In this document: positions 36,662 to 63,176 of the stretch, piece by piece | How positions within the stretch are numbered: the stretch's first letter is position 1 | Layout of the letters: each line of letters begins with the position of its first letter | Source: Malacoraja senta | Lineage: Eukaryota | NCBI GenBank assembly: GCA_038087875.1 | Contig: CM075992.1 | Location: forward strand, 7,132,001 to 7,196,000 | Length of the DNA stretch: 64,000 nucleotides | Direction: 5' to 3' | Made by a program: the position numbers and the translations under genes | Notes under the pieces: model-generated | What the model was told of the DNA's origin: nothing | The model's database searches: none | What the model saw: the letters and a program-made list of their open reading frames with translations, nothing else

Positions 36662-36692
36662 ATGGAATTAGAGGAGACACGTGGGGAGCACA
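36662..36692 (+). CDS. Lectin A putative exon 1 (MELEETRGEH), cytoplasmic
   Basis: GAAATGG Kozak, CA|GTAAGT donor, phase 1 compatible with downstream exons. Confidence 0.55.
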
Positions 36693-36846
36693 GTAAGTTT
36701 CATCTTCATAAGTTCATAAGCTGTAGGGGCAGAATTGTAGCAGAATCTTGATGAACACAGACCGTAGAGAGATATTGGCGGGAAAGGCTGGTCGCGTTCA
36801 CACCCGTAGGCTAATAGTTGCAGTATTTTTCACATTATGCTTTCAG

Positions 36847-36894
36847 TTCAATTCGCCACATCGGCTGGGAGGCAAAACCGTCCAGGGAGGCTTG
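36847..36894 (+). CDS. Lectin A putative exon 2 (IQFATSAGRQNRPGRL), cytoplasmic
   Basis: TTTCAG| acceptor, TTG|GTGAGA donor, 48 nt, phase 1-1, open frame. Confidence 0.55.
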
Positions 36895-37273
36895 GTGAGA
36901 TTGACAGAGGATGATGACATTCTGAAGTTCTGTAATCCACGCGGTCTCCCTGTGACCGCGTGGATTTTCCCCGGGTGCTCCGGTTTCCTCCCACACTCCA
37001 AAGGCGTACAGGTTTGCAGGTTAATTTGGCTTCGGTAAAAATTGTACATGCTCCCAAGTGTAGGATAGTGCTAGTGTGCGGGGATCGCTGATCGGCGCCG
37101 ACTAGGTGGGCCGAAAAACCTGTTTACACGCTGTATCTCAAAACTAAACTAAACTAAATATCGATTCGAGGGGCGGGTGTGAGTCAGGTGGTGTATTTCT
37201 GCTCCTATTTCCGTTTCTTCTCGTCCCCTTATGCTGGCGAATGGGCTCTTTGTTCTTTACAACAGCAGGGTAA

Positions 37274-38550
37274 TTAAGAAACCTATCATTGTTAACACCG
37301 ATAGCGAATAATCCTTTATTTAAACCATCTATGATGGACAAAATATATAATCAATGGGAAAGTTTAGGAATTAAAAGGATCGGGGACATGTATGAAATGG
37401 GAGATTTACTATCATTTCAACAATTACAATTAAAATTTAAACTGAAAAACAATCATTATTTTAAATATTTTCAGATTTGCAATTTCTTGAAGACACACAT
37501 ACAGGGATATCAAAAAATAATTCCTGATTTATTGGAAGAAGTAATGAATATTAAAGCTGATACACAAAAATTAATATCATATTTATATAATAGTATTTTA
37601 AATATAGATTCACCTGCGACTGAGGTAATTAGAGAAGAGTGGGAACGGGAATTAATGATAAAAATTACGAAGGTTACATGGGAAAAGTATTTGACATACA
37701 TTCACAAATGTTCGATTAATGCAATACATAATCTAATTCAATTAAAAATTTTACATAGATTGTATTACTCAAAAACAAGATTAAATAAATTTTACCCAAA
37801 TATATCCCCCACTTGCGATAAATGTTTAATCCAAGATGCAACTATAACACACTCTTTTGTTTCCTGTATAAAACTTTATAGATTTTGGAGTGATATTTTC
37901 GAAATATTCACAAAATTATTTAAGATAAAAATGGAACCTAATAATGAATTGATTGTATTTGGGGTAATGGAAGATGGGAATAAATTGAATCCATCTCAAA
38001 AATTATTTTTTAATTATGGTTTAATAATAGCAAAAAAATTAATACTTAAATTTTGGAAAAATACACCAATACCAACGCTCAAAATGTGGATTGCAAGTAT
38101 GTTGGACACTGCACATCTTGAGGAAATGCGATTCCTCCTAATAGATAAATTTGACCAATTCACAACGAGTTGGTCTCCATTTGTCGTCTTTTTGGAATCA
38201 TATGGTGCAACACAATTGTAAAAGCTAACTCGTGACTGGGCGAGGGATGGTCAAGATTATAAATAAGATCTCCTTACTTCTTTTTTCTTTTTCTTCCTTT
38301 TTTTACTTTTATTCTCTTTTTCCTATTTTCTCCTCTTTAACTTTCCTCTTTCACTCTCTATTTTTCTTCTCCACACACTATATATCTCACATTTTTCTAT
38401 ACTTCATCATCTAATTTATTTTTCTTTTCTTCTTTATTATAATAAAAAAAATAAGAAGCTGTACATAAAATGTATTATGAAAATATGATTGTATACAATT
38501 GTACTTACTTCTAATAAAATAAAAAAAAATTAAAAATTAAAAAAAATAAA
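37274..38550 (+). mobile_element. 5'-truncated L1 in lectin A intron; ORF2 C-terminal 310 aa uninterrupted
   Basis: CDKC..H....C motif; poly(A); 15-bp TSD ACAACAGCAGGGTAA at 37259-37273 and 38551-38565. Confidence 0.95.
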
Positions 38551-39476
38551 ACAACAGCAGGGTAAAATACTTTTGGATGATTGTGCGTAATGTGCAGGAT
38601 CTGCAACATATCCAATCTTGAGACTGAAGAAGGGTCCTGACCCGAAATTACACTTATCCATGTGCTACACAGAAGCTGCCTGACCAGCTGAGTTACTCCA
38701 GTATATTGTGTCTTTGTTTTTGTAAACCAGCAGCAACTGTTCCTTGTTGAATACATCTGTTCCTACCCATTTGAAATGTGGCGAGGCCCACAGTTGGAAT
38801 ATTGTGTTCAGTTTTGGTCACCCTGTTGCAGGGAAGATGTCATCAAGCTGGAAAGGTGCAGACAAGTTTTGTGAGGATGTTGTCAGGGCTCAAGGGCCTG
38901 AGCTATAGGGAGAGGCTGAGCAGGCTGGGACTATTCATTGGAGCGCAGGAGGACGAGGAAATCTTATAGAGGTGTATAAGATCACGAGGGGGATAGGGTA
39001 AATGCACAAAATACCCAGAGTAGGAGAATCAAGAGCCAGAAGACACGGGTTGAAGGTGCGGGGAAAGATTTGATAGGATCCTGAGGGGCAACCTTTTCAC
39101 AGAAAGAGTGATGGGGGTATGGAACAAGCTGCGAGATGAAGTAGTTGAGGCAGGTACTATCGCAACAGTTAGACAGGTACATGGATAGGATAGGTTTAGA
39201 GGGAATGGACCAAACGCAGGCAGGTGAGACTCGTGTAGATGGGACATGTGGTCGGTGCGGATAAGTTGGGCCGAAGGTACTAATTCCACGCCGTATGACT
39301 CTATAACTCTATGACTGTGGCCAAATGTTCTAACCTTGATGGAACGTGTGTTGAACATTTTAAACGTTCAGTCGCAGAAAATACTTGGCTATTCTGTCCG
39401 TTCCCTGGGTCTCTCCCAGGAAAGGTTTGGAGTCTTTTTCACTGGTCTATTGCTGACTGCCGCTTCCACTTCGCAG

Positions 39477-39596
39477 AACGTGGCGTTCAGCCAGCGGAGA
39501 CTGCCCGAGGAAAACCGAGCCCTTCGGTCGTCTACTCTCTCCTGGGCGTCACCATCCTGCTGTTCGTTCTGACTCGCGGCATTGCTGTGATATTGA
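39477..39596 (+). CDS. Lectin A transmembrane (signal-anchor) exon, 120 nt
   Basis: TCGCAG| … TTGA|GTAAGT; RGVQPAETARGKPSPSVVYSLLGVTILLFVLTRGIAVIL; paralogous to 63177-63296. Confidence 0.85.
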
Positions 39597-41031
39597 GTAA
39601 GTTTGGGGAAATATTGAATATTGGAAATGGGGAACTTGTTCTGCTGTATTTGTGATTGAGCAAGACTGCTGTGGTGGAAAGGAAGTGATCATTGACTTCA
39701 TAGCTTCAGGAAGAGCGTGACAATACATACGGAAGTGTGAAATACATTCATACAGAGACACACGTCATGGGTAAAGGCCATTCGGCCCGCCACATCCGCA
39801 CTGGCCAGTGGGACACATCATTATTAATCCCATGTTCCAGCCTTCTACGTCTAAGTGATTGAAGTCCTAGTCTGCAGACATTACTTAAATGCTGTCAGCG
39901 ACTTTACTTCTATTGTTGTCCCAGGCAGTGTATTGCAGGTACATCTCAAAATTCCATACTTCATTACCGTGTAATTATGCCCTTTAGGTTTATCTACGGT
40001 AGGATTTTTTGTAGTGCATTCTATCTATAATCCTCATAATTTCACATACCCCAATCTTATCGCCTGTTATCCTTTCCTGCTGCAGAAAAAACCCAGACAT
40101 TGTTTCCTCTTTTCATCATAACTGAAACACTTCATCCCAAACAATATCCTGGTCAATCTCCTCTGTACCATTTCCAGCACTCTCACGTCATTCCTGCACC
40201 GTGGTGATCTGAACTGCACTAGAATTCCAGTTGAGGTCTGACTAATATTTTATATATTTTGACTATACCCTCCTTGTTATTGCATTCAATGCACTGACTA
40301 ATGATTACAAACTTCAGGGGTCCCGGTATCTATCCTCGTGGGGCGCAACTAGTCACGGGCAACCGATCACAAAACAATCCTTTATTTTCACTGCGTATAT
40401 AGATAGAAAGGTTCAACACAAGAACCAGTCCTTTCGCCTACCGTATCTGGAATAACTATGAAGCCAGAATAAAACAACCTCATCTGCCCGCAGATAGTCG
40501 TTGTGCCTCTGGTACCTGCTTGTTGATATGTTTCAGGGAGTTATGCAATTGCAACCCAAGATCCCAATGTACATCAACGTTTCTGCAGGATATCCCAAAA
40601 AGCAACACCTCACAGTCGTCTGGGTTGAACTCCGCATGTCATTTGACAACCTTCCTCACTGTTTACCATGCCCCCATGTTTCACGCACCGCTTCATCTAT
40701 ATTGTCATTCAAAATCCGTGATACATATTGTAAAGAGCAGAGGCCCTAACACTGATCCTTATGAAACACCACTGGTCACAGACCGCCAGGCAGAAACACC
40801 ACCACCACCACCACTACTTTTTTGTCAATTTTGGAATCGATGAACTAATTCACCGGCTACAACTGATACAATGCTCGCAGGTCTCAAATGACCAAACGTT
40901 ACTCCACCAGTAGAAGCGCCAGTTTATTTATTGCAGAGCCCGGCTAATAGGAGCTGATAATCCTTGGGGATGGCGGCGGAAAATCCCGCGTATGTTGACG
41001 TATGAAATTCAAAAAATTGTTTCACTTTCAG

Positions 41032-41100
41032 TGGCACAAATGTTGAGTGGAAAGCAAATGTCTGACAGTGGTTTTCGGGTGGAGAATTCCCAGGCTCATG
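41032..41100 (+). CDS. Lectin A neck exon, 69 nt
   Basis: TTTCAG| … ATG|GTGAGT; phase 1-1; AQMLSGKQMSDSGFRVENSQAH; same length as the lectin B neck exon. Confidence 0.7.
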
Positions 41101-43043
41101 GTGAGTGCGAAATCCAATCTGATTTATTTCTATATCCCTAATTCAGAGAATTATGTAGCCGTTCAGGATGTTTGGGCATTCTGCAGACTACCGACATAAA
41201 ATCACATGGAACTACTTTTCAGGGTTCAATTCGCAACAGGGGAAGACGTACCGTCTGGGTGAAACCCGGGGCAACAGAAATCATGTATTTTTATCTAAGG
41301 TTTGATGCTGAAACTAGAATTGATCACAGAGCTCTACACCGATGGCACGTTGTACCGTTCATTGTTATTCTGTCTCGGGGTGGCAAGATAGAACCTGCGT
41401 TGTGGAATATTTCCACACCCGGGTCCAGCGGACCGAGAGAGAGCACGAAATTACGGTGTCAAATAGCACGGAATCAAACCATTTGGCCCAACGTGTACAC
41501 GCGTCGATAAATACCTATCAATACTAATCCCATTTACCCGCACTCAGTATCCTAATGACCTCGAGATTCCGATGTACCTCTAGATACACAATTTCCTAAA
41601 TGTAATGAGAGCATTTGTCTCCACCATTCACTCAGGCACCCCTCAGAATCCAATATTATTATTGGATACCTTATTATCCTCTCCCTAAACATTATTGTCC
41701 TCTCCTTAAACCCATGTGCCCTAGTGCAGGTATCGCTGCTATGGGATCGTGTGCTGCTATCCACTGTCTACAGCCCTTAGAATTCTGTATGCCTCTATCA
41801 GTGCAGCCTCTGCCTCTGTGCTTCAGCTATACATTCTAAGTCATTTGGTGTTTCCTCTTATGACTAATCTCCTCACTCGCACTTCTCCGATTTTTGCATC
41901 ATCTACATATCTACTAATCATACCTCCCGCGTACGAATTCAAATCGTTTGTGCGTGGGTAACAAACAACAAGAGTCCCTGCACCAATAACTGTGATACAT
42001 CAATTGTAAGAGGCAACCATCACAAAACTAATGACCACAATTACCAACTATATCCCATTAGAAAGCCAATTTTGGATTCATTTGGCTAACCCACCTGGAC
42101 ATAGATGCCATCTTCCATTATAGGATCGTATCAAAGGCCATAAATAAGTCTATGAAAACTATATAAACTGCATTGGCTTCACCAAAACAATTTGTTAACT
42201 TTGAAAAAACTCATACTTGTCAGACCGGATCTGCTCCTTTCAAAACCAAGTTGACTATCTTTGATTAATTCCCGTCTCTGCAAGTGCATATTAATCCCCT
42301 TCCCTCGTTTTCCCTAGACTCACAAATGTATCCTGATGCGCCCCCTTCTGCAGTAAGGGTGCCAGATTTTCGGTGCTCCAGTCATCAAGCATCTCATCTG
42401 CGATGAGAGACGATTTAATAAGGTGAGAAGTTAACCAGGGGTCTATCGGAACACAAGGTCGAGAGGAAACCAACTCCTGGATAAGGGTTGAACTGGAAAA
42501 GAAAGAAGCAGAGATGCAGAGGGTTTAACAGGAGGTGAAGGATGCAGAAGAACAGTCGAGCGATCTGGATCAATCCCAGATAATTGCCAGAGAGCGGGCT
42601 TTGAGATCCCCAGAATTCCCTGTTGGAGTTAATAGTGACTCGGTCATATCCCTCGGTTTGGGATCTCCCACAACTAGATAGACCATCTCTCTTTCCATGC
42701 CCTTGGCGATTTACCATTTCAATTGAGCCTCCTTTGAAACAACTCACCGTGGAAAGGTCCAGGCTGATAGGTCCTGATGGGGATGACCTTTATGTACTAG
42801 AATCAACCACATAACTATTTCCTATAGCGCCCCTTGTGCGCCACTCTCCATCGTGCAAAACGGTGATCTGAGCAAGCGCTGCCTTTGAATGAGCGGCTGG
42901 CTCGATCATTCGATCAGGAGGCTTGAAGCTGCCACTCTGCTCCCTATGGGATTTGCAGACATCCTTGAAACACCCTCACCTTCAAGATGCTCCATTCTGT
43001 GGAATGACAGCTACCTCTGATGTTTCCTTCAATATTTTCACAG

Positions 43044-43189
43044 ATCGGCTTTATTGTGCAGTAGAATGGACTCGGTTCAAGCAAAACTGTTATCACTTTT
43101 CCACAAAGGCAAACGGGTGGGTGGAGGCCCAGAGATCCTGTGCGTCAGTGGATGCTCATCTTGTTGTCATTAACAATGCTGAGGAACAG
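43044..43189 (+). CDS. Lectin A CTLD exon 1
   Basis: DRLYCAVEWTRFKQNCYHFSTKANGWVEAQRSCASVDAHLVVINNAEEQ; canonical splice sites. Confidence 0.93.
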
Positions 43190-44236
43190 GTAGGAATGAA
43201 GCGTATAATTACACTAACCGGCAGTTAAATGTTCGTCGGCCGTTGAATGATGGTGCTGACACTTATGAGCACAGAGAAGCCTCGGCCGCTGCTGGATGTG
43301 TAATGGGCAATATACAACAAATAATAATCACTGAAGTCACAAAGAGGCAGGAGCAGCGGGTCAGGTAGCATCTCTGGAGAAAAGGAACATGACCCTGCTT
43401 CAGATTGAGAGTCTGGAGAGAGGGAAATGAGAGATGTAAAATTCTGTCTGAAGAAGGGACTTGATCCGAAACGTCACCCATTCCTTCTCTCCAGAGATGT
43501 TGCCTGTCGCGCTGAGTTATTCCAGGTTTTTGTGTCTATCGTCGAGAGATATGACAAGGTCCTCCTACACATAATACACACTGCCCCTTTAAGTAAAGTT
43601 TGAAAGGTTGTTGCCTGTGTTGGACGGCTTGGATTATAAAGAGATATTGAATAGGCTGGAGAAAATAAGGCCGAGAGCCATAGGTAGCCAAAGTGTAGAT
43701 AGTCAAAGTGTCCTTTTCCTCATGGTAGCGGAGACTACAACTAGAGGGTATATATTTAAGGGGAGATTTTAAGGGGATGTGAGGACAATGTTTGTGTACA
43801 GAGGATGGTGGGTATATGGAAGGAGGTAGTAGAGGCAGGTACAAATACAAAGTTTCATGTACACGGAGAGGAACGTTTTATAAGAAATGGACAAAACGTA
43901 AACAGATATGGTTATCTTAGACGTGCATCTTAGTCGTCCTGCATGGGATGGGTTGAAGGGCCTTTATCTGTGCTGTGTGACACAATGAATCTGTGAATCT
44001 ATGTATTATTATCTCCACAGTGTACTGTACTGTGGAGATAAGAATACGGCTCACTGCTCACTGCCAACTGACGCAATCAAAAACTGCACTCATTCCAATT
44101 TCAGCAATGCATTCGATTAGTTAGAAACAAATAGTTATTAGGCCTCTGGAGAAAGTGGCCAATGGAGAGTTTACCACAAATGCTACTAACGGCCATTGTT
44201 ATCTCCTGCACTGAAACTCGTTCGCTTACATGACAG

Positions 44237-44349
44237 GCATTTCTAAGAAAAGCGCTTCCGAACCAAACGCACTGGATTGGCCTCAGTGATATGGTTCACG
44301 CAGGTGACTGGCGCTGGGTGGACGGAACGGATTATTTCTCCTCTGTAAC
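44237..44349 (+). CDS. Lectin A CTLD exon 2 (113 nt)
   Basis: AFLRKALPNQTHWIGLSDMVHAGDWRWVDGTDYFSSV; WIGL motif; AG/GT. Confidence 0.93.
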
Positions 44350-45161
44350 GTGAGTTCCATTACAGTCGCATGTTGTGTGGCACATAGAGACAAGGAACTC
44401 CAAAGTGCACGATTACAAGCGAGACATCTACGATGTACAGTAAAGGGAATGACATGAATAACATTAAGCAAGGCACCCATCAGTGGTATTTAATTACTCT
44501 CTTCTATATGTAATTCTCTTTGGTTGCTTGGCTGAGCACAGTTCCAATCTCACTCAAGAAGATTGGCATTTTACAGGACAATCAGACCATCCAGACAATC
44601 AGGACAAGCACCCCACTAAATATACTACCTGACCATTCACGCCGTCGTTGATGCACACAGCTGCCACGTGTACCATCTACCAAATGCACTGTGATTACTC
44701 GCCCAGGCTTGACCACAATACCTCACTAACCCATAAACACTAAGTCTAGAGAGGGTAGAAGGCTTTTTATCCAGAGACACTGTCTGACCCACTGAGTTGC
44801 TCCAGCACTTTGTGTCTATCTTCGGAATAAACCAGCACCTGCAGTTCCTTTCTCACAAACTATAAGCACTAGCAGCTGGAAGGGCAAGCATACGGAAACA
44901 CCACCATCTTTCTTTTCTCTCCTTATCACGAATTGGCCTGACTTGGAAATGTAAGGCTGTTTTTTCATCGTTGACGGGTCAAATCCTGTACGTTCAGTAG
45001 TTCAGCAGCAGCTCAAGAAGGCTGCCCTTACCGTCTTCTGAAGGTCACTTAGGGATAGGCAGTAAATACTACTGGGACAAAATGCTGGAGTAACTCAGCG
45101 GGACAGGCAGCATCTCTGGAGAGAAGGACTGGGTGACGTTTCTGGTTGAGACCCTTCTTGT

Positions 45162-45189
45162 CTGAAGAAGGGTCTCGACCCGAAACGTC
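45162..45189 (+). ncRNA. Minimal hammerhead ribozyme-like motif in a Penelope-derived repeat (best-preserved copy)
   Basis: CTGAAGA-A-GGGTC-TC-GACCC-GAAAC-GTC; other good copies at ~20590-20617 (+), ~30990 (+), ~25334-25361 (-) and ~47784-47811 (-). Confidence 0.65.
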
Positions 45190-45420
45190 ACCCATTCCTT
45201 CTCACCCATTCCTTCTCACTATAGATTCTGTCTGTCCCGCTGAGTTACTCCAGCTTTTTGTTTCTATCTTCGGTGTAAACCAGCATGTGCAGTTCCTTCC
45301 TACACTGTAAATATACTGGGCTTGCTTGACACACTAACATCCAAAAAATGAATAAGGAAATAAAAGTGCGAATCGGGTAAGAAAAACATGATAAAAACTA
45401 ATATATTTTTCGTGGTTTAG

Positions 45421-45580
45421 ATTTTGGACTGAGGGAGAACCAAATAACCCACAATCCGAATGCTGTGTGGAGACGTATGCTAATGGCATGTGGAATGATC
45501 GGCAATGTAATGTTCATCGACGTTGGATCTGTGAGAAACCAGCTTCCACAACCTCCCCCTCCACACTACAACTGCCCTAA
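45421..45580 (+). CDS. Lectin A CTLD exon 3 (terminal); CD209/CLEC4-like
   Basis: FWTEGEPNNPQSECCVETYANGMWNDRQCNVHRRWICEKPASTTSPSTLQLP*; EPN and WND; candidate AATAAA at 46283. Confidence 0.93.
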
Positions 45581-49070: not shown

Positions 49071-51510
49071 TGGTTGGGCTGCATTTGGAATATAGTATGC
49101 AGTTCTGGTCGCCCCATTACAGGAAAGATGTGGCGGCTTTGTAAAGGGTGCATTTTCAATATCACTATAATGATACCTAGATTAGGAGTGTTAGCTAGAG
49201 AGAGAGGTTAGACACTTTGATTTTTTTCTATGTAATGCTGGAGTTCGCGGAGAGACCAGATAGAAGTATATAAAACTATGAGATGCATAGAAAGGGTAGA
49301 CAGTCAGAACCTTTTTTCCAGGATGAAAAACTCAAATGTTAGAGGCCATACATTTAAGCTGAGAGGGACAAAGTTTAAAGGAGATATGTGGACTAAGCAT
49401 TTTCCACAGAAGCTGGTGAGAGCCTGTAACACATTGCCAGGGGTGGTGGTTAAGTTAGATATGATAGTGGCATTGAGAATTTGGGATAGGCATATGGATA
49501 CACAAGGAATTGATTATCCATGCACGTGAGTTAGTCTTGGCATCATGTTCGGCACAAAAATCGTGGGTGGAAGGGATTGTTCTTGTGCTACAATGTTCTA
49601 TGTTCTATGTTCTATGTTCTAAATGAGGTGAATTTTGCTGAAGAGCTGAAATGCGTAATAAAGATTTAATCACACAGTGCAAAGCATGCCCAGGAATAGA
49701 GGGGCTGTTGTGGAGTGTGGAGATGCTCAAAGGTGCCAGGACAGAGTGAGAAGTAAGGAAACCATATGAAAACTTGCACTTAAAAAAGTAGCAACATCAG
49801 AACAGTCTGCTCATTGCAATAGCAAATTCAGTACACTACAGGACCACAAGTCATTAAAATGCAAATCATTTTTATTCATGAATCAGTAAACATGAGATTA
49901 AAAGCAAGTAGTAGATTGCATTTGATTGTAAACATTCAGATTGTGGATCACGACCATGCAGGCACATATTTACCTTTTGAAGTTGGTGGTCCGAGTTTCC
50001 GATGCGCCCCCCCAAAACTGAATAATGAGCAAGAAACAGGGGGGAGTCTGCAGACCGATGTAGAGGGAACGAGGAGGGTAGAGGAAAGTGGGGGTTGTGG
50101 GATGATGAGTGGAACATTAATAGTAGCCTTGCATTTCAATAAAATGAATTGCATAATTTTGGACACATCACCACCCTGACAGAAGCTAGGGCTGACAGCC
50201 CATCTATCGAGAACTAGGTTTGATTGGAATGCAGCCCAGTACACTGGCCGTTCAGTCTGCGTTCTCAGTGCCCTTGACACAGGAAACTAGTCCAGCCTTC
50301 AGAGAAAGACACATATCATGACTTGGAAGCCATGCTGCTGTTTCTGAGACACCCGGGGTGTCTCGGATCCATGGGGCCAAAGCTGAATGGATGTGGGGGC
50401 ACCAGTAAGCAGCGATGTACTTCGTTCATGGTATTGAGTATAGACGTTGGGATGTTATGTTACAGTTACACACGGTGCTGGTGAGCTCACCTTTGGAGTA
50501 TTGTATTCAGTTTTGGTCACCCTGCCATAGGAAAGATGTTGTTAAGCTGGGAAGAATGCAGAGATGTTTTACAAGGATGTTACTGGGACTTGAGGTGCTG
50601 ACCTATAGGGAGAAGATGGGCAGGCTGGAACTATATTCATTGGAGCGTAGGGGGATAAGAGATGTTTTTGTATCAGTGTTGAAGATAATAAGGGGAACAG
50701 AGGTAGATGCATAACCTCTTACCCAGAGGAGGGGGACCAAGAACCAGAGTTTAGGTGAGAGGGGGGAAGGATTAATATGAAACCGAGGGGCAACTTTTTG
50801 ACACAAATTATATGGAATGAGTTGCCAGAGGAGGTAGTTGAGGCATAAACTATAATAACGTTTAAAGGACATTTGAACATGTACATGGATATGATAGGTT
50901 TAGAGATATATGGTCCAAACGCGGACAGTTGGATGGGTCCCCGTGGTCGGCATGGGCAAGCTGGGCCGAGGCTATATAACTCCATCAGATTTTTCTTAGA
51001 GTGGCACCTCGACCACTGGCTGTTCAGTCACCACCCTGAGGTATACACAATCCATTCCACGTCTCAATGGACAATAATAAAGGACAAATCACAACTTTCA
51101 GACAGTCCACCACTGGTTGAAGACTCCCAGGGCAGCTTAGTTCCAAAGAGTCCGAGTGGGAGAGATATGAGGTAGCTGGAAGCATGGGTGAGCACATTAC
51201 GTTTGCACATTTCAACACTGCGGAGAATTGGATCTGGGTCCCCACTATGAAGGACAGTGTGAACATTCCCCTTTGGTTCCCTTGTGGCTCGTTACACTGT
51301 TGGGTCAGGACAACGGAGTAAAAGGGGCTGTGTGTGCAGTGGGGTTTCAGATAGTTGTAGAGGTGAAAGGAATGGAGTTGGAGAGAGTTCTGATCACACA
51401 ACCACCGCACTAATTCCAGTTCAGGACTGCACACTCGATATACAGTCGAGGGACATTTACAAATTGATTCACTTCCCCACTCCGCCCCATCTGTAACCTG
51501 AACGGACGTG

Positions 51511-51637
51511 TCACGGTGCTGTTTTTTCACAGATGGGGAAATGTTCGGAACTGCACGGCCGATATTGCCACGACCCATCGTCAGAGACCACAGCACAATC
51601 TCCAGCTGTACCATTCTGTTGATCGCTCGCCCAGAAC
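51511..51637 (-). CDS. Lectin B CTLD exon 3 (terminal)
   Basis: TCTCCAG| acceptor; FWASDQQNGTAGDCAVVSDDGSWQYRPCSSEHFPICEKTAP*. Confidence 0.9.
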
Positions 51638-53294
51638 CTGGAGAAGGAGAGAGATGTGAATTGGAACGAGTGGGCAGTGTATAATTCAGGAAGGGATTCT
51701 TTCCAATGCCCGCGTTCCTCCTGTTGATCGGTGGTTAAATATTTAACTGCAGCTTTATACCTTTATAATTAAACAAGTAGCGTTAAGGTAATGGTGCCAG
51801 GGTTGGATTCCTTGCATGTTCCTGCTCGTACCATCATCCATCTATGATGCTGCAGATATTTTGTTCACAGACACTGAAGTCCTTTCTTAGTTTTATCTCA
51901 TATTTCAATCATTCCTACAAAGACCCAGGAATTGGACGCAGGTGTATTCCGAGGAAAATTCCTAGACAATTTAGTGGATTTCTGCAGCCCGATTCCAGCT
52001 TAGTTTCATCCCCACACTGCCGCCGCTTTGTCAACTAGACCATCCAGTGTTCCCGAAACTCAATGTAAATCCCCATCTCTTGTTCTTGCTCCTCGCGTCT
52101 GTCAGCTTGCATTTCCCCACCCTCCCTTTTATCTGCCACTTGTCTGACCATTAACTCCCTGTCCATGACTCCGTTTCTCTCTCCACATGGGCTTCTCGAC
52201 TTGCTGAGTATTGCACTTTCACAGATCTCCCAAGTCCACTGCGAGTTTTATGCTGTATTGTAGGTTTTTCAGTTTTAGTTTGGTTTAATTTAGTTTAGTT
52301 TAGCTTAGAGATACAGCGCGGATACAGACCCTTCGGCCCAGCGATTCCGCGCCGACCTGTGATCCCCGCATTTTCACACTATCCTTTGTTTCGTATCCAC
52401 AAAACTTTTGTTCTCCCTCTTTTTAAACCGGAGAGGCAACATTTTTACTCAAAAGGTGGTGGAATGGAATGAGCTGCCAGAGGAGGTAGTTCAGATAGAT
52501 TTAATAGCAATATTTATAATACACCTGGTACATGGATAGGAAATATTCAAGAGGGATATGGGCCAAATGCAGGCAATTCCAATTCAGGAGTCACTCGGGC
52601 GGCGCAGCGGTGGAGTCGCTGATTTACAACGCCAGCGACCCTGACTACATGCGCTGTCTGTGCGATCCTGACTAGAGGCGCTGTCTGTGCGGAGTTTGTA
52701 TGCTCAACCTGGGACCTTGTGGGTTTCCACCAGGTGCTCTGGTTTCCTCCCACACTCCAAAGACGTGCAGGTTTTCAGATTGTGTAGGAAAGAACTGCAG
52801 ATGCTGGTTTAAATCGAAGGTAGTCACAAAATACTGGAGTAACTTAGCGGGACAGGCAGCATTTCTGGAGAGAAGGAATGGGCGACGTTTCGGGTCGAGA
52901 CTCTTCTTCAGCTGAATGTTGCCTATTCCTTTCTTCCAGCGATGCTGTCTGTCCTGCTGAGTTACTCCAGCATTTTGTGCCTACCCAGGTTTGTAGGTTA
53001 ATTGACTAATTTGAAAACTGTCCCTAGTGTGTAGAATAGTGCAAACGTACAGGGTGATCGCTGGTTGGCACTGACTCGGTGGGCCGAAGGGTCCGTTTCC
53101 ACGCTGCGTCTCTAAAGTCTAAAGTCTAAAGATGCATCCGAGAAAAAACAGAGGTCGTTGACTGGAAACTAAGGGTTAGCGGGAGGGCAACACGAGATTT
53201 ACTGCACAAAACTTGAAATTAACAAGTTAACAGGGACCTCCAGGAATGCCGTGGGTAAAGATACCTCACTGTGGGGATATAAACCAACACTCAC

Positions 53295-53401
53295 TTGACA
53301 TTCGTGGTATAATCACTGCCATCCACCCAGCGCCACGTCCCTTCAGTCGTACAATGGAGTCCAATCCAATAGTCACAATTTCTATACCGTCGAATATATT
53401 C
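53295..53401 (-). CDS. Lectin B CTLD exon 2 (107 nt)
   Basis: EYIRRYRNCDYWIGLHCTTEGTWRWVDGSDYTTNV; AG/GT; phases match the neighbouring exons. Confidence 0.92.
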
Positions 53402-53706
53402 CTGCCGTATAAACAACAGCGTCCATATGAACAGATTTTGTAGTATTAGTGACACGACAAACATATTATTTGGCCCTGTATCGGGACACAATGGGTCACG
53501 GCAGTCAATGGGTTAAAGTGGAGAGTGGGCGAAGGCAGAACAAACTATGTTGCAAACTGGCTAATTAGAGAAACACGTGTCTCAGTTACAAAACAATTTT
53601 AGGTCGGTACAACCCCCCCCCCCCACACACGCGATATTCTTCCATCTTACCCCACACCCACGCTTTCTCCCCTCCCCTCTGTCCAACCTGGTCTATTAAC
53701 CTATTT

Positions 53707-56700
53707 CTGGAGAAGCAAGTGGATGACCTCAGGTTCGTCCGAGAAACTGAGTCATTCCTCGACAAGTCCTACAGTAAGATTGTTACACCTAAGGTACTGG
53801 AAGAGAGAAGGTGGGTGATGGTGAGAAAGGGAGGGAAGCATGGAATGCAAACGTTCCCGGGTGTTGTACCTCTTGTGAACAGGTTCACCCACTTAGAAGC
53901 TGTCGGGACAGAAGACGTTATTACACTGAGCGGCGGACTGGCTTGCGAAGCAAAAAGGGCTGTTGAGCCAAAACCAAAGAGGCCAACGTCAGGCAACGCC
54001 ATTGTAGTGCGAGACTCCATTGTGAGAGGTACGGACAGGGGTTTCTGCGGCAACAGACGGGATTCGAGGATGGTGTGCTGCCTTCCTGGTGCCAGGATCC
54101 AGGATGTCACGGACAGAGTGCAGAAAATCCTCAAGGGCAAAGGTGAACAGCCGGAAGTGGTAGTGCATGTCGGCACAAACGATGTCGGAAAGAAGGGGAT
54201 GAATATTCTGCAGCGTGACTAGAGAGCTCGAAAAAATGCTGAAAAGCAGGCCCTCCAGGGTTGTTATTCTCTGGTTTGCTTCTAGTTCCTCGTGCTGGCG
54301 AGAGCAGGAACAGGCAGATACGGGACCTGAATGTGTGGCTGAGGAACTGGTGCACGGGGCAGGGATTTAGATTCTTGGATCACTGGGATCTGTTTTGGAG
54401 TAAGGGGGAACTGTACAAAAGGGACGGATTGTATCTTAACAGGTGGGGGCCCAACATTCTGGCAGACAGGTTTGCCACTGCTACACGGGTGGTTTTAAAC
54501 TTAATAAGGGGGGTGGAGTGTCAAATGGGATAGTCGAGGATGGAGTTAAAGGGAAAGGGTTTCTTAAATGTGTGAGCAGAGAGACAGAGGGGGTGTAAAA
54601 TGAGGGTAGAAGCAATAGGTAGCAAGGTGAAAAGTAAAAGTGGCAGGCAGACAAATCCAGCCCAAAAATCAAAAAGGGCCACTTTTCAACATAATTGTAT
54701 AAGGGGTAAGAGTGTTGTAAAAAGAAGCCCGAAGGCTTTGTGTCTCAATGCAAGGAGCATTCGTAATAAGGTGGACGAGTTGAATGTGCAGATAGCTATT
54801 AATGACTATGATATACTTGGGATCACGGAGAACATGGCTACAGGGTGACCAAGGCTGGGAGCTGAACATCCAGGGATATTCAATATTCAGGAGAGATAGA
54901 CAGAAAGGAAAAGGAGGTGGGGTAGCGTTGCTGGTTAGAGAGGAGATTAACGCAATAGAAAGGAAGAACATTAGCTTGGAGGATGTGGAATCGATATGGG
55001 TAGAGCTGCGAAACACTAAGGGCAGAAAACGCTAGTGGGAGTTGTGTGCAGGCCACTTAACTGTAATAGTGGAGTTGGGGATGGCATCAAACAGGAAATT
55101 AGAAATGCGTGCAACAAAGGTAAAACAGTTATAATGGGTGACTTCAATCTACATATAGATTGGGTGAATCAAATTGGCAGGGGTGCTGAGGAAGAGGATT
55201 TCTTGGAATTTATGCGGGATAGTTTTCTAAACCAACATGTAGAGCTATTCTAGACTGGGTATTGAGTAATGAGGAAGGGTTAGTTAGCAGTCTTGTTGTG
55301 CGTGGCCCCTTGGGCAAGAGTGACCATAATATGGTTGAGTTCTTCATTAGGATGGAGTTCTTCATTAGGATGGAGAGTGACATAATTAATTCATAAACAA
55401 GGGTTCTGAACTCAAAGAAAGGTAACTTTGAGGGTATGAGACGTGAATTGGCCAAGATAGACTGACAATTGATTCTTAAAGGGTTGACGGTGGATATGCA
55501 ATGGAAGGCATTTAAAGGCTGCATGGATGAACTACAACAATTGTTCATCCCAGTTTGGCAAAATAATAAATCAGGGAAGGTAACCGTGGATAACAAGGGA
55601 AATCAGGGATAGTATCAAAACAAAAGATGAAGCATACAAATTAGCCCGAAAAAGCAGCCTACCAGAGGACTGGGATAAATTCAGAGTCCAGCAGAGGAGG
55701 ACAAAGGGCTTAATTAGGAAAGGGAAAATAGATTATGAAAGAAAACTGGCAGGAAACAAAAAAAACTGACTGCAAAAGTTTTTATAGATATGTGAAAAAG
55801 ATTAGTTAAAACAAATGTAGGTCCCTTGCAGTCAGAAACAGGTGAATTGATCATGGGGAACAAGGACATGGCAGACCAATTGAATAATTACTTTGGTTCT
55901 GTCTTCACTAAGGAAGACATAAATAATCTGCCGGAAATAGCTAGCAGCCGGGGGTCAAATGAGATGGAGGAACTGACTGAAATCCAGGATGGCCGGGAAT
56001 TGGTGTTAGGTAAATTGAATGGATTAAAGGCCGATAAATCCCCAGGGCCAGATAGGCTGCATCTCTGTACTTAAGCAAGTAGCCCCAGAAATAGTGGATG
56101 CATTAGTGATAATTTTTCAAAACTCTTTAGATTCTGGAGTAGTTCCTGAGGATTGGAGGGTAGCTAATGTAACCCCACTTCTTAAAAATGGAGGGAGAGA
56201 GAAAACGGGGAATTACAGACCAGTTAGTCTAACATCGGTAGTGGGGAAACTGCTAGAGTCAGTTATTAAAGATGGGATAGCAGCACATTTGGAAAGTGGT
56301 GAAATCATTGGACAAAGTCAGCATGGATTTATGAAAGGTAATTAATGTCTGACGAATCTTATAGAATTTTTCGAGGATGTAAATAGTAGAGTGGATAAGG
56401 GGGAACCAGTGGATGTGTTATATCTGGACTTTCAGAAGGCTTTCGACAAGGTCCCACATAAGAGATTAGTATACAAACTTAAAGCACACGGTATTGGGGG
56501 TTCAGTATTGATGTGGATAGAGAACTGGCTGGCAGACAGGAAGCAAAGAGTAGGAGTAAACGGGTCCTTTTCAGAATGGCAGGCAGTGACTAGTGGGGTA
56601 CCGCAAGGCTCAGTGCTGGGACCCTAGCTATTTACAATATATATTAATGATCTGGACGAGGGAATTGAACGCAACATCTCCAAGTTTGCGGATAACATGA

Positions 56701-57616
56701 AGCTGGGGGGCAGTGTTAGCTGTGAGGAGGATGCTAGGAGGCTGCAAGGTGACTTGGATAGGCTGGGTGAGTGGGCAAATGCATGGCAGATGCAGTATAA
56801 TGTGGATAAATGTGAGGTTATCCACTTTGGTGGCAAAAAACAGGAAAGCAGACTATTATCTGAATGGTGGCCGATTAGGAAACGGGGAGATGCAACGAGA
56901 CCTGGGTGTCATGGTACACCAGTCATTGAAAGTAGGCATGCAGGGGCAGCAGGCAGTGAAGAAAGCGAATGGTATGTTAGCATTCATAGCAAAAGTAATT
57001 GCGTATAGGAACAGGGATGTTCTACTGCAGTTGTACAGGGTCTTGGTGAGACCACACCTGGAGTATTGCGTACAGTTTTGGTCTCCTAATCTGAGGAAAG
57101 ACATTCTTGCCATAGAGGGAGTACAGAGAAGGTTCACCAGACTGATTCCTGGGATGTCAGGACTTTCATATGAAGAAAGACTAGACTTGGCTTGTACTCG
57201 CTAGAATTTAGAAGATTGAGGGGGGATCTTATAGAAACTTACAAAATTCTTAAGGGGTTGGACAGGCTAGATGCAGGAAGATTGTTCCCGATGTTGGGGA
57301 AGTCCAGAACAAGGGGTCACAGTTTAAGGATAAGGGGGATATCTTTTAGGACCGAGATGAGAAAAACATTTTTCACACAGAGAGTGGTGAATCTCTGGAA
57401 TTCTTTGCCACAGAAGGTAGTTGAGGCCAGTTCATTGGCTATATTTAAGAGGGAGTTAGATGTGGCCGTTGTGGCTAAAGGTATCAGGGGTTATGGAGAG
57501 AAGGCAGGTACAGGATACTGAGTTGGATGATCAGCCATGAATGGCGGTGCAGGCTCGAAGGGCCGAATGGCCTACTCCTGCACCTATTTTCTATGTTTCT
57601 ATGTTTCTATGTTTCT
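53707..57616 (+). mobile_element. Long CR1 LINE (ORF1 SGNH-esterase part and disrupted ORF2 EN/RT) in a lectin B intron, antisense
   Basis: DSIVRG…CCLPGA…VVVHVGTND (ORF1); [33 protein letters not shown] (ORF2); several stops and frameshifts; (TTTCTATG)n tail. Confidence 0.95.
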
Positions 57617-58227
57617 CGCCTCCTTTTCCCCTTTCACTTACGTTCCTCCCTCAAGCTGCACAATTCGTATCTCTTCAATCCGCTTGTCTCACACATTCTG
57701 GCCTTTTTTAACCATCTGCCTCGCCAGTATTAACCTATTACCTGTCAGACCTTCCACTGCCCCTCTGCTTACTTTTAGCTGGTCCCCCCCCCTTCTACCC
57801 TCCACCCCCACCATTAGTCTGAAGAAGGGTCCCGAACCAAAACATTATCTATCCCTGCTCTCCAGAGATGCTGCCTGATCCACAGAGTTACTCCAGCACG
57901 TTGCGTCTTTTTTAGTGCCTTGCTGTAGCCTTTGAGCACACTGATGGAGCAAATGGAAGTCGATACGCACTGTTTATCGATCAATTAATTGTGTGTCCTG
58001 CAGCGGCACCAAACGTGGTGAATAAACAGTTGCTTATTCAATGAGATAAGAGGTTCGAAATACATACACGTTGGGTCCACTAACATTTTGTCATTGTTGC
58101 TGCAGCTGGGCGAGGGTGTTGACTGGAGCTCAGCTACCTGTCGACTGGGTGATCTCAAGGTGAGATATGCTTACGTACTAAGACTCTCCCTTTAACCCAT
58201 GACGTCAAGTGACAGCCCTCGTAACCA

Positions 58228-59290
58228 TGTTTCACATGTGGAACATATTTACATATAATCTCGCGTATACAGCCTTTCTCATGACATGTTCTCATTTACT
58301 GAGCATGTCATCTCTTGAAATGACTGCACAGATTAATGCTGACGTTGCTGTGTTGAACTCACAGCATTTAAGATGAACGATAGAAACAAGAGCATTGTGG
58401 ACCAGTGAAACATTATCGGGGTGAGGTGAAGGTGTGTAGGAGCTCGTAAAGGGTTCGACCGTAAGTGGTCTGACTATCAGCTGACACCATAGTCATTCAG
58501 TTGGGAATAATTACCCTTGTTATTTATGCATCATCAATGTCAGTGTCCATTAATAGCTACCCCTTATTTTCCACATGGAATGTGAGGAATGAGATGCCCG
58601 AAGTGAGACAGAAATGTAAATAAATGTAATGCAAAAAAAAAAAAAAAAAAATCCTACCTGTGCCCTGTCACTATCAATGACCACAAGAGTAGCGTTCATT
58701 ACGGTACAGAGATTCTGAGCTTCATTCCATGTTTGTTCAGTGGACGAGAAGAAGTAAAGGGTTTGATTGAACAGCCTCCATTGGTCGAAAGGCTGGCCAA
58801 AGGATAGATCTACAAAGACAGTTAGATCAATGTTAGGTGTAAGAAGGAACTGCAGATGCTGGGTTAAATCGAAGATAGACACAAAAACTGGAGTAACTCA
58901 GCAGGACAGGCAGCATCTCTGGAGAGAAGGAATGGGTGATGGACGTTTCGAATCGTCACCCATTAATTCTCTCCAGAGATGTTGCCTGTCCTGCGGAGTT
59001 ACTCCGGCTTTTTGAGTTTACCTTATATAAATGTTATGATCAGCTGGGCAGTACCGACCTTCACAAATCTCACTGCTCACCCGTGTTTCACATGTGGAAC
59101 ATATTTACATATAATCTCACGTGTACAGCCTTTCTCATGACATGTTCCCATTTACTGAGCATGTCATCTCTTGAAATTACCACACAGATTAATGCTGACG
59201 TTGCTGTGTTGAACTCACAGCATTTAAGATGAACGTTAGAAACAAGAGCATTGTGGACCAGTGAAACTTTATCGAGGTGTATAGGAGCTT
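58228..59290 (+). repeat. ~200-bp direct repeats (58228-58445 and 59084-59290) flanking lectin B CTLD exon 1
   Basis: Near-identical TGTTTCACATGTGGAACATATTTAC…GACCAGTGAAAC blocks. Confidence 0.92.
58658..58809 (-). CDS. Lectin B CTLD exon 1 (152 nt)
   Basis: LSFGQPFDQWRLFNQTLYFFSSTEQTWNEAQNLCTVMNATLVVIDSDRAQ; TTTGTAG| and |GTAGGA. Confidence 0.9.
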
Positions 59291-60618
59291 GCGGCTGTTA
59301 AGCATAAACATTGTGGTCAATGGAACATCTGATTCTTCTCCGGGTTTAATGGCGGTGGCCGGGTTCAGCGAATAAAGGTAGTTCGTGGACCCTTGGGGAC
59401 ACGTTGGAGCCCAGACGTTGCTACGAGCAGTTTCAGTTACACAGGCGTCACCCAGAGAATTGGACATCGCTCACCCCGAAGTCCAGCTGAAGAGCAGGTC
59501 ATCTGATGTGAGCCATCCTGTGGTTGTGGATGCTAGCCATGACCTGGCCCGCGGTGGACCCCGGTTCCAAATTTGCAGGGCACCCCCAGAAACGGGGGCT
59601 GAAATCCAAGCCTTCATGCTGGTTTACAGCTAAAGCCATGATCTCACTGAGTAGTTTCATGTCTATTGCACGACACGCAAAAAATAACAACTGGTGCATT
59701 GGTGGAAGACGAGAAGACCATTGACTACATGGAACTTGGAGGATCTCAGCCGAAATGTTGCTCGCTCAATACAACTTCATGATGACAACACAACTGGTGT
59801 CACAGAAGGTGATCAATCTCGAAGTGTTGATGAAATCACACAGGTACAGATCCATGTTATCTCATCACTTGCCGGTGAGATCCCACCACTCAATTACCAC
59901 CATTACGAGAGCAACTTGGATCAGGTGGAAATTATCCTCTACCCCTGTCAATTTGGAGGGGAAGGGGGGAAACTGCTCACAACAATTCCGATCCATTCAG
60001 AGACTAGAGGATATGGGACGATGATCAATTTTTAGCCCTCGCATTGTCAACATTCAGATAGTTCCCAGGTTGAATGATTCAATGACTGGAGTCGGATCAG
60101 CTGGTCATTGAACTTACCTTCCCTTAGCCGTGAAACCACAGCCTGGATTTCGCCGATTGAGTGGTGTATCTTCTCGAAGGCTTTCGTTTATCAGCTTTCG
60201 TTTATCAGCCCCATTCCTGCCCTCGCTCTAAATTTGCCCGGCGAACGCTATGCTACTCCAACACAGGAATTTCCGTTTTCCCTGGTCCACGTGTCACTAG
60301 ACTTACCGGATTCCCGATTCCCACTCTACCCGACACTCACTGAGTTTCCCAGCTCCCCCCAAGAATTACTCATTCCTGCGCCCTGCTGATTCCCCACAGA
60401 TCCTACCCTCCACAAACTCACGTGTCCACGCTCCAACGCGGCTCGGTGATAGATTTTACATTTAGTCAGTTTTCAGCATTCTGAAGTTGGTCTCGAATCT
60501 TCAAGTAAGGGAATGAAATGCGGACCATCTCATCGCGAGGGTCTGGTGAATGACTGCCCCATATATTCGGCTCGACAATTCTCTGAACTGGAGAGTGCAA
60601 CTTCACACTTATCATTAC

Positions 60619-60687
60619 TCCTCCACTTGGAAACATCCATAAGGTAGTCAGCATTTGATATCTTCACTTCACTGAACTTGTGTTTGA
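60619..60687 (-). CDS. Lectin B neck exon (69 nt, weak GTAATG donor)
   Basis: TTTCAG|; KHKFSEVKISNADYLMDVSKWR; phase 1-1; patterned like the lectin A neck exon. Confidence 0.6.
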
Positions 60688-63176
60688 CTGAAATGGGAAA
60701 AAATATTTGACACTCACATGAATATCTCGAATCGATTTACCTCGGAGCTCTCCTTTTGCCCATAAGGTCTTGTTAGCTGGGTCATATGATATATAAAACA
60801 GGGAACATTTGCTGGAATACAACATTAACTAGACCATAGACTGGATTGCGTGCTTAGCTCTGGTTGTCACGTCACTGTAAAGTTAAAAATGCACCCGTGA
60901 GGTCGCAGAGGAGACTTAAGAGGATTGTGATTCTGGTCTCTGGCGTAGAGAAAGTTGAGTGTTGACATATCAGTTGTATTAAATAATGTGGGGCCTTGGA
61001 GTAAATAGAAATGATCTAATTACCCGAGCGGTGAAGTCAAAAGCCAATGGAATGGAAATAGAACGAAGAGCGAGAGATGAAGGCACGATTTGCACCCAGT
61101 GTGTGAAGGAGAGAAGAGGCAGGAACTCTCAACACATTTTTAACAATGCCCGGATTTCAAAAACCATCATGCAGTACTTGAAGTTGGCATTAGGCTGACT
61201 TTTCTAATTTGATTGTTATAGAATAATTTTCCAAATTGCCTTTACTGCACTGGGCGTTCTCCGGGGCGACAAACAAATCCCCAGTCCTAGGTTTCCCCGC
61301 AAACTCCTCAGGGATTGTTCAATCATGATTCAGTGTAAAGTGCAGTAAGCTGTCTTGCAAGACGTTCCTCTGAACTGGCAACATTGTAAAGTAAATTTAA
61401 TATCAGACAGAACATGAGCAGGTAAAATAATTTGGTCCCACACACCTACCCTGATAATGTTCAATGATGACGAAGTGTCTCCCTAAAGAACATATTCCAT
61501 TTCCCCTTTATTTTGACTAACGTTTTGTATTGGACCAATGTTCCTTAACATGGAGAAAGGTTGGAAGTGGAATTCCAAGGACTAGAGATCTTCCAAATTG
61601 TTTTGATGCTCTTGTGTAAGGGGTTGTGCAATCCCAGGGACTTCGGATTATTTGTGCAGCCTTCACCAGGCCTGGACTGGTCAAGTTGCCAGTGCAGTTT
61701 CCTAGAAAGAAATGTGAGTTTTGGCGAGGAAGATACATGTATTTTGTATGAGACGGGGCTTCAGGCATAGAGAAATATCACCAAAAGCTGCAGTGTGTGG
61801 CCAGCGGTGAGTGGGCTATGGAACCAGCCAGGCAGAAAAGAATGAACATGCGTTGCATCTGATAAGCAAAAACTTCAATGTAAACCAAGGTCTCCAGGTC
61901 GAGATTCTGTTCCCTCCACATGTCCAAGCAGTGGAACATCAGAAGGCTCAGGCCGTCCTACAAGGGGGACAATCACCAGAGCTTCCAGAAGACCTTCGCC
62001 TTGCTACGGGAGGCGTGTGTGTGGTGTGTGTGTGTGGTGGTGGTGGTGGTGTTGGGGGGTGGGGGGGCAACAAAAAATAGCTGTTCGGAAAACAAAACAT
62101 GGTTTACTTGGCCAGGGTGGGGCGTCAGAGTGAGGGCGCATAATAAAGAGGTGGGGAGAGGCGGAAGAGGAGGAACTGGCGGGAAGAGTAGGAAGTACAT
62201 AGTACTTCTGCAGCCTAGTCTAGCTACAGACTAATAATTCTGTGGAGTAACACCATGGGGCAGCTTGAGTAGGCACAATAAATGGATCAAAAACATAAAC
62301 TTCTTAGGGACACGATAAGATAATCGAATGTTTGCTGTACTGCTCGTCTAAAAGCAAGGGCATATTTCGATCTCCCATTTTCTGGGAAGTATTATTCCTA
62401 CCTGTCTGCAGGCAGCCCCACAAAAAGGAGGCAATCGGTAGTGTGCAACCGAAATGCTGAAAAAATTTCAGTGTTTTCTACTTCTCCCCCATCCAGCCGG
62501 ACCAAATTGCATCTTTGGACTGCCCCTTTAAATGCTGGAGTTCAGATTTCATCACGGGCCTCTGCTGCCGGTTAGAGAGGCGGGGTTAATAATCACAGGG
62601 TCGATCAGTGAAAATGCCTTTGACCGAGGGAATTAACCGCTTGGTGCCTTCGATACTGTACTGTACACCTCTATGCACAGTAAACTCCCATTAATATTAT
62701 GACTTTTTAAAATGCACATTAAGTGGAATTGCTGTTTGTATTATTATTACCACCTATACCACGCAATAATGAGATGGTGTGTCTGCCTATTAAATCATGT
62801 CATACATGAGTTCAATCAAGCTATACATGAGTACAACAATGCAAAGAGAGAAAAAACTGCACACTATAGCGATATCGCATTACAACGTTAAACTTACAGA
62901 AAGAAAAGTGTAAAATACCAATGAAGTCGATTGGAAGATCGGGTTTGCAGCCTGGCTTGTGGGAGGACGGTCACTTACATTATGAATACATGCTGATTTA
63001 TATATAAGACAGACACAACATGCTGGGGTAATTCAGCGTGTCAGGGAGCATCTCTGGAGAAAAAGGATGGGTGACGTTTCGGACCCTTCTTCACACACAT
63101 ATGCATTTCCTTTTATTAATTTATAGTCAATCACATCTGCGACTCGTTTCAAAGTTTAAAGTTGCACAAAACTTAC

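What the first reader, a model, noticed from the sequence alone, without database searches (positions are those of the whole stretch)
36662..45580. Candidate Mincle-like activating C-type lectin receptor in a cartilaginous fish
Seen: seven AG/GT exons (31+48+120+69+146+113+160 nt) splice into one 228-aa type II receptor. It has a cytoplasmic tail with no Tyr motif away from the membrane, an Arg (CGC, 39575-39577) near the extracellular end of the TM helix (LFVLTRGIAV), a short neck, and a CTLD with EPN and WND. Known: EPN/WND specifies Ca2+-dependent mannose/fucose/GlcNAc-type binding, and mammalian Mincle (CLEC4E) has a similarly placed TM Arg (CFITRCVV) needed for FcR-gamma coupling. Inference: an ITAM-adaptor-coupled glycan sensor, either ancestral to or convergent with Mincle. 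The ECC (usually E-D/N-C) adds a spare Cys.
Basis: partly seen in the sequence, partly recalled or inferred. Interest (0 to 1): 0.72.

Follow-up and report, generated by a model that had tools for sequence, protein, structure and literature searches.

The report
Ray lectin receptor with membrane arginine
A real shark/ray-family sugar-binding receptor gene has lost its usual tail tyrosine and gained a charged membrane residue, so it may be a separately evolved activating immune receptor, but it is not Mincle.

Summary
The seven-exon, 228-aa model is in the sequence as described; no reads confirm the splicing or the Arg codon. It is not Mincle: it falls in a chondrichthyan CD209/CLEC17A/hepatic-lectin-like clade (96/97), gene+Mincle is rejected (AU p=0.033), and Mincle's lipid groove is absent. 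Arg60 lies three alignment columns deeper than Mincle's Arg. Only 1 of 45 shark/ray relatives has a basic residue in the TM core, at another column. The neighbouring paralogue has CTC (Leu) where this gene has CGC. The family's tail tyrosine (39 of 42 relatives) is replaced by Arg7. At 7-9 residues from the outer TM end, the Arg fits the DAP12/DAP10 depth better than the FcR-gamma depth. The primary Ca2+/sugar site is intact, but two auxiliary-site ligands are changed (E>A160, and D>C190, the spare Cys); Ala at either position abolishes DC-SIGN binding. Best reading: an independently derived activating paralogue (0.45). Main rival: a recently relaxed duplicate (0.35). New variant of a known kind.

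The parts
36662..36692 (+). Exon 1 (start codon, tail); codon 7 (36680-36682) is Arg where the family has Tyr of a YEN/YQN motif
36847..36894 (+). Exon 2 (tail, 16 aa); least certain exon, frame-neutral
39477..39596 (+). Exon 3: juxtamembrane tail and type II TM helix
   Evidence: 43 relative hits up to E 1.7e-7
39575..39577 (+). Arg60 codon CGC; Leu (CTC) in the neighbouring paralogue; 7-9 residues from the outer TM end
41032..41100 (+). Exon 4: single neck exon (the relatives' second neck segment is absent from the model)
43044..43189 (+). Exon 5: CTLD part 1 (Cys94, Cys105, Cys122)
44237..44349 (+). Exon 6: CTLD part 2; Asp156 (DC-SIGN D320 equivalent) kept, Ala160 (44300-44302) replaces the E324 equivalent; one N-glycosylation sequon at 147
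45421..45580 (+). Exon 7: CTLD part 3; EPN 45437-45445, Glu189, Cys190 (45461-45463, replaces the D355 equivalent), WND, stop
51500..63296 (-). Neighbouring tail-to-tail paralogue of the hepatic-lectin-like subclade (no TM Arg, no EPN/WND); context, 5' exons not found in the window

Best explanation
A lineage-specific member of the tandemly expanded shark/ray group II (CD209/CLEC17A/hepatic-lectin-like) receptor family that has switched signalling mode. SHOWN: relatives have a neutral TM and an N-terminal Tyr motif (YEN/YQN); this copy has Arg at the Tyr position, has Arg60 where relatives have an apolar residue (one base from the paralogue's Leu codon), lacks the second neck segment, keeps all five primary Ca2+/sugar ligands and has changed two auxiliary-site ligands. 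INFERRED: Arg60 pairs in the membrane with the Asp pair of a dimeric adaptor, by depth more likely DAP12/DAP10-type than FcR-gamma. The receptor would reach the surface only with the adaptor and signal through the adaptor's Tyr motif, as the activating member beside Tyr-bearing paralogues, with weakened or altered glycan binding. This is convergence on the Ly49H/NKG2D/Mincle design, not descent from Mincle.
For: Family placement: 96/97 in the CTLD tree, 82/92 in the full-length tree; 51-52% identity to sawfish and skate proteins against 34.5% to a bat Mincle. Tyr present in 39 of 42 relatives with a full N-terminus and absent here; TM-core basic residue in 1 of 45 relatives. The CTLD has evolved under constraint: 1 of 48 conserved columns changed against 43 of 76 others, p=2.6e-11; ORF and splice sites intact. 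PMC1440944 (passages and Discussion): one properly placed basic residue in poly-Leu suffices for DAP10/DAP12 assembly; DAP12 partners have it at position 7-12, the FcR-gamma partner FcalphaRI at 3; type II Ly49 and NKG2D use Arg; such receptors arose repeatedly by point mutation. Arg60 is at 7-9 from the outer end, Mincle's at 5 or less in 11 of 11.
Against: The Arg is a single-base change seen in one assembly, with no orthologue sharing it and no read confirmation. Tyr loss and Arg gain are not significantly associated (Fisher p about 0.2 on a hand-entered approximate table): the sawfish Arg-bearing gene keeps its Tyr, and 3 relatives lack the Tyr without an Arg. The other derived features (lost neck segment, E>A160, D>C190 with an unpaired Cys) are losses, as expected of a relaxing duplicate; in DC-SIGN, Ala at either position abolishes binding (PMC2193797, PMC2213143 passages). 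I found no source showing DAP10, DAP12 or FcR-gamma in cartilaginous fish (the papers read reach only bony fish). TM boundaries come from hydropathy windows and can shift by 2-3 residues.
Confidence: 0.45

Rival explanations
1. Recently relaxed duplicate in a birth-and-death cluster. The Arg, Tyr loss, short neck and broken auxiliary Ca2+ site are accumulated neutral or mildly damaging changes; the protein is poorly expressed, ER-retained, or a non-signalling decoy or partner subunit.
For: All derived features except the Arg are losses. E is invariant (29 of 29) and D common (26 of 29) at the two changed sites in relatives. The spare Cys is unique among 52 sequences. The end branch is long (0.46-0.55 against medians 0.20-0.22). 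The neighbouring paralogue also looks damaged (AT at a donor). L>R is one base.
Against: No stop, frameshift or splice lesion in 7 exons; only 1 of 48 conserved CTLD columns changed, fewer than in most relatives. Both Ca-ligand changes hit the same auxiliary site and spare the primary site. Langerin has Lys at the D320 column and, from recall, binds sugar without the auxiliary site.
Confidence: 0.35
2. Convergent Mincle analogue: Arg60 couples specifically to FcR-gamma, and the EPN site senses mannose- or glucose-type glycans.
For: FcR-gamma prefers Arg (PMC1440944). The Arg is in the outer half of the helix and about one turn from Mincle's. Pufferfish 'trMincle', annotated CD209-like, needs FcR-gamma for surface expression (PMC11929736).
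Against: Deeper than Mincle's Arg (7-9 against 5 or less); no hydrophobic groove; auxiliary site changed.
Confidence: 0.15
3. True orthologue or ancestor of Mincle (CLEC4E), with the Arg inherited from the gnathostome ancestor.
For: Similar size, EPN/WND, Thr-Arg in the TM, no tail Tyr; deep branches in CTLD trees are poorly resolved.
Against: AU p=0.033 against gene+Mincle. Gap-free TM alignment puts the two Arg three columns apart. The nearest relative P0233 has Leu between near-identical flanks. 68 of 197 aligned residues match Mincle.
Confidence: 0.03
4. Arg60 is an assembly error or a rare allele.
For: Single base, single assembly, not checked in reads.
Against: The rest of the CDS shows no lesion; substitution errors are rare in modern assemblies (own knowledge).
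Confidence: 0.02

Closest known systems
Chondrichthyan 'CD209 antigen-like / CLEC17A-like / hepatic lectin-like' RefSeq models (Pristis XP_051898147.1, Amblyraja XP_032868215.1, Hemiscyllium and Hemitrygon paralogues)
   Same: Exon-scale architecture, 10-aa first segment, TM, neck 1, long-form CTLD with EPN/WND; 51-52% identity; several paralogues per species on one scaffold.
   Different: They keep the YEN/YQN Tyr, a neutral TM, usually a longer neck and the auxiliary Ca2+ ligands. Their names are automatic annotations, not tested functions.
Mincle (CLEC4E) and pufferfish trMincle
   Same: Type II, EPN/WND, TM Arg, no tail signalling motif.
   Different: Separate clade; Arg three columns shallower; Mincle has the hydrophobic groove and keeps both auxiliary-site residues. 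PMC11929736 reports homologues down to bony fish and does not mention cartilaginous fish.
DC-SIGN (CD209)
   Same: Best PDB match for exon 7 (E 5.5e-10); all primary-site ligands kept.
   Different: E324 and D355 equivalents changed; no long repeat neck; no TM Arg in the CD209 sequences examined.
Activating Ly49 / NKG2D (type II CTLD receptors with a central TM Arg; DAP12/DAP10)
   Same: Proposed working principle and Arg depth; origin by point mutation from a paralogue (PMC1440944, PMC4701786 passages).
   Different: Those are group V, Ca2+-independent, protein-binding receptors (own knowledge); this is a group II EPN/WND domain.

Membership tests
Group II type II C-type lectin receptors | N-terminal tail, one TM, neck, single long-form CTLD over three exons | tested here: met
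Group II type II C-type lectin receptors | Primary Ca2+ site ligands (E, N, E, N, D) | tested here: met
   E182, N184, E189, N201, D202 align to DC-SIGN (PMC2193797 and PMC2213143 passages)
Chondrichthyan CD209/CLEC17A-like expansion | Groups with shark/ray paralogues in the tree | tested here: met
   96/97, 82/92; position inside the clade unresolved
Mincle (CLEC4E) | Forms a clade with mammalian CLEC4E | tested here: not met
   AU p=0.033
Mincle (CLEC4E) | TM Arg homologous to Arg42 | tested here: not met
   column +5 against +8 in a gap-free TM alignment; Arg42 from PMC10235688 passage
Mincle (CLEC4E) | Hydrophobic groove beside the sugar site | tested here: not met
   Pro-Gln where bovine Mincle has Leu172-Val173 (PMC10235688 passage); Asn-Val where Mincles have Phe-Phe/Tyr (their role in the groove is recalled)
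Mincle (CLEC4E) | EPN motif and no tail signalling motif | tested here: met
   (only tail-side Tyr is Y46, at the membrane)
Mincle (CLEC4E) | FcR-gamma-dependent surface expression | not testable with these tools
   needs co-expression
Mincle (CLEC4E) | Dectin-2-cluster synteny | tested here: inconclusive
   no non-lectin, non-retroelement Pfam match above noise among 120 ORFs scanned; no whole genome held
DC-SIGN (CD209) | Auxiliary Ca2+ site (D320, E324, N350, D355) | tested here: not met
   D156 and N185 kept; A160 and C190 changed
DAP12/DAP10-coupled activating receptors | Basic residue near the TM centre (position 7-12), no inhibitory Tyr motif | tested here: met
   7-9 by hydropathy windows against PMC1440944; boundary uncertain
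DAP12/DAP10-coupled activating receptors | Physical assembly with the adaptor; adaptor present in the species | not testable with these tools
   no adaptor sequence or genome available; literature searches gave no answer for cartilaginous fish

The most novel reading that the evidence does not exclude
Rays have evolved activating, adaptor-coupled lectin receptors more than once from their own CD209-like cluster by single-base TM changes (this gene at column +5, a sawfish gene at +6). This one is a DAP10/DAP12-coupled group II lectin whose auxiliary Ca2+ site was remodelled for a new ligand: a paired-receptor system in the oldest jawed-vertebrate lineage, independent of Mincle and of the NK complex.
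Probability: 0.25. Interest if true: 0.65.

Novelty: new variant of a known kind. Interest (0 to 1): 0.38.

Why it matters
If Arg60 recruits an adaptor, it would show charge-based activating lectin signalling in cartilaginous fish, for which my searches found no report (open-access library only). It would be another independent origin of a design already known to have arisen several times. It also bears on the origin of Mincle: a TM Arg plus EPN is not enough to call a fish lectin a Mincle homologue. The principle is textbook, so the surprise is moderate; the gene is a compact, directly testable case (R60L).

Tried and rejected
Reads: no RNA holder listed. No read-level check of junctions or of the Arg base was obtained. 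No whole genome is held, so adaptors, other paralogues and synteny could not be searched. TM-exon homolog search: 0 of 27 candidates scored (weak evidence). Representative-library search was swamped by multi-CTLD proteins; I fetched 5 new hits of the 150 and two (P0233, P0235) were family members. ESM Atlas on the TM exon: best score 0.76, uninformative. HMM search for a hidden second neck exon failed its positive control; tblastn found that segment in the paralogue but not in intron 4, so absence is likely, not proven. A shared origin of this Arg and the sawfish Arg: clade not rejected (AU p=0.36), but the columns differ and the free tree pairs this gene with Arg-less P0233 (92/82), so independent gains are preferred. 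Exon 7 was first given in the wrong frame; those results were discarded and redone. Earlier-findings look-ups were empty. No structure or complex was predicted, so the fold of the changed loop and adaptor binding remain open. Zebrafish Illr3 as a fish group II lectin with a TM Arg is recalled only; one search did not confirm it. dN/dS was not possible without relatives' DNA.
Full report
Observation. The seven exons splice through GT..AG introns into a 687-nt ORF of 228 aa, none in a within-window repeat. Exons 5-7 match Pfam Lectin_C and exon 7 matches DC-SIGN best in the PDB. Exon 3 is hit by 43 relative alignments. Exon 1 is the best of 16 start-plus-donor candidates. Exon 2 is plausible but weak and frame-neutral. 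Arg60 is CGC at 39575-39577. Nothing here is confirmed by reads.

What it is. Exon 5 finds ray and skate proteins annotated CD209-like or CLEC17A-like at 68-74% identity. A profile search returned 156 proteins, 120 listed, including shark and ray paralogues and mammalian CLEC4E, CD209, CLEC10A and ASGR2. In a CTLD tree of 64 rows and 131 columns, the gene lies with 40 chondrichthyan sequences, separated from all 23 others at 96/97. Holding it with five Mincles is rejected (AU p=0.033). A full-length tree of 36 rows gives the same group at 82/92 and pairs the gene weakly (92/82) with sawfish XP_051898147.1. Both trees warn of long branches among the non-chondrichthyan rows. Identity is 111 of 218 to that protein, 112 of 214 to skate XP_032868215.1 and 68 of 197 to a bat Mincle. 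No close orthologue is in the database. The family looks tandemly clustered: paralogues share a scaffold within species, skate accessions XP_032868211-216 are consecutive, and the window holds a second, tail-to-tail paralogue.

The Arg. The TM aligns without gaps across sharks, rays and Mincle. Counting from the conserved Gly-x-x-Ile-Leu-Leu anchor, the Arg is at +5 here and +8 in Mincle. Of 57 chondrichthyan relatives I set aside 12 (11 models without a TM, 1 redundant isoform). Of the remaining 45, isoforms included, none has a basic residue at +5, one (sawfish XP_051898113.1) has Arg at +6, and two have one at +10, the helix boundary. The window's paralogue has CTC at the same codon, and the nearest relative has Leu between near-identical flanks. 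The Arg is therefore a derived one-base change, not a residue shared with Mincle. It is followed by 8 apolar residues against 5 in 11 of 11 Mincles, and sits 7-9 from the outer end against 5 or less. PMC1440944 (passages and Discussion read) places DAP12 partners' basic residue at 7-12 and FcalphaRI's at 3, shows that a single positioned basic residue suffices, and notes that type II Ly49 and NKG2D use Arg. Depth therefore favours DAP12/DAP10, within the error of hydropathy-based boundaries.

The tail. 39 of 42 relatives with a complete N-terminus carry a Tyr in the first 14 residues, mostly YEN or YQN with a hydrophobic fourth residue (three models starting at an internal Met were excluded). 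This resembles the CLEC10A-type internalisation motif and the Grb2-type YxN motif (own knowledge), not clearly an ITIM. This gene has Arg at that position. Tyr loss with Arg gain is the signature of adaptor-coupled receptors (PMC4701786 passage), but with two Arg-bearing genes the association is not significant (p about 0.2, hand-entered approximate table). The sawfish gene keeps its Tyr.

The ligand site. All primary-site ligands are present. Of the four auxiliary-site ligands, the E324 equivalent is Ala160 (Glu in 29 of 29 relatives counted, of 31 given) and the D355 equivalent is Cys190 (Asp in 26 of 29). In DC-SIGN, Ala at either position abolishes binding (PMC2193797 and PMC2213143, passages), although langerin binds sugar without this site (recalled; Lys at the D320 column). 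Mincle's groove residues Leu172-Val173 (PMC10235688, passages) correspond to Pro-Gln here. The ~25-aa second neck segment of the closest relatives is missing (the HMM check was inconclusive), although some relatives' models also have short necks. Against decay, only 1 of 48 conserved CTLD columns has changed against 43 of 76 others; this shows past constraint, not present function.

How it most likely works. Shown: family membership, derived Arg, lost Tyr, intact primary site, changed auxiliary site. Inferred (0.45): an activating paralogue that assembles through Arg60 with a DAP12/DAP10-type adaptor and has weakened or altered glycan binding. Rivals: relaxed duplicate (0.35), FcR-gamma-coupled Mincle analogue (0.15), Mincle orthologue (0.03), base error (0.02). 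Whether rays have these adaptors was not established: PMC1440944 and PMC11929736 document them down to bony fish.

Comparison and novelty. It may work like Ly49H, NKG2D or Mincle, but it fails three membership tests for Mincle. PMC11929736 (parts 1-4 of 6 of the text, i.e. abstract to discussion; the spreadsheet supplement whole; the Word supplement searched only; figures not seen) traces Mincle-like receptors to bony fish and never mentions cartilaginous fish. Searches showed no paper on activating lectin receptors in sharks or rays; the library omits most subscription journals. PMC13107469, PMC3395205 and PMC7916673 (passages) added nothing decisive. Killifish group II lectins with a TM Arg also appear in my hits, so the feature recurs in fishes. 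Verdict: real gene, new variant of a known kind, interest 0.38.

Noticed in passing
window 63296-51500 (- strand): Second CTLD gene of the hepatic-lectin-like subclade, tail-to-tail with the finding. It has QQN and WQY in place of EPN and WND, AT instead of GT after the first neck exon (ends 60613), and a weak acceptor at the second neck exon; possibly decaying or non-glycan-binding. Its 5' exons were not found in the window.
   Followed up: partly
P0025 (Pristis pectinata XP_051898113.1): Second batoid paralogue with a TM Arg, at column +6 and Mincle-like depth (4-6), which keeps its YQNV motif and has a long repeat neck; probably an independent gain.
   Followed up: partly
P0087, P0091 (Fundulus clusters): Killifish group II lectins with a TM Arg followed by 6 or more apolar residues; P0091 has QPD.
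   Followed up: no
window 1-5615 (+): LINE-1-like element: ORF1-like frame (1-1014, weak L1 RBD match) and an uninterrupted 1266-aa ORF2 frame (1815-5615); related 3' fragments at about 28930-30180 and in intron 2 of the gene (about 37270-38550).
   Followed up: no
window 47967-48836 (+): 289-aa reverse-transcriptase fragment (Pfam RVT_1 and ALKBH8_N matches), another retroelement family.
   Followed up: no
P0017 vs window 54097-54195: The RefSeq model for Mobula protein P0017 contains a segment matching a repeat-derived frame in this window (E 8e-5), probably a repeat exon included in that gene model.
   Followed up: no
window about 11356-11555: Assembly gap of 200 N.
   Followed up: no
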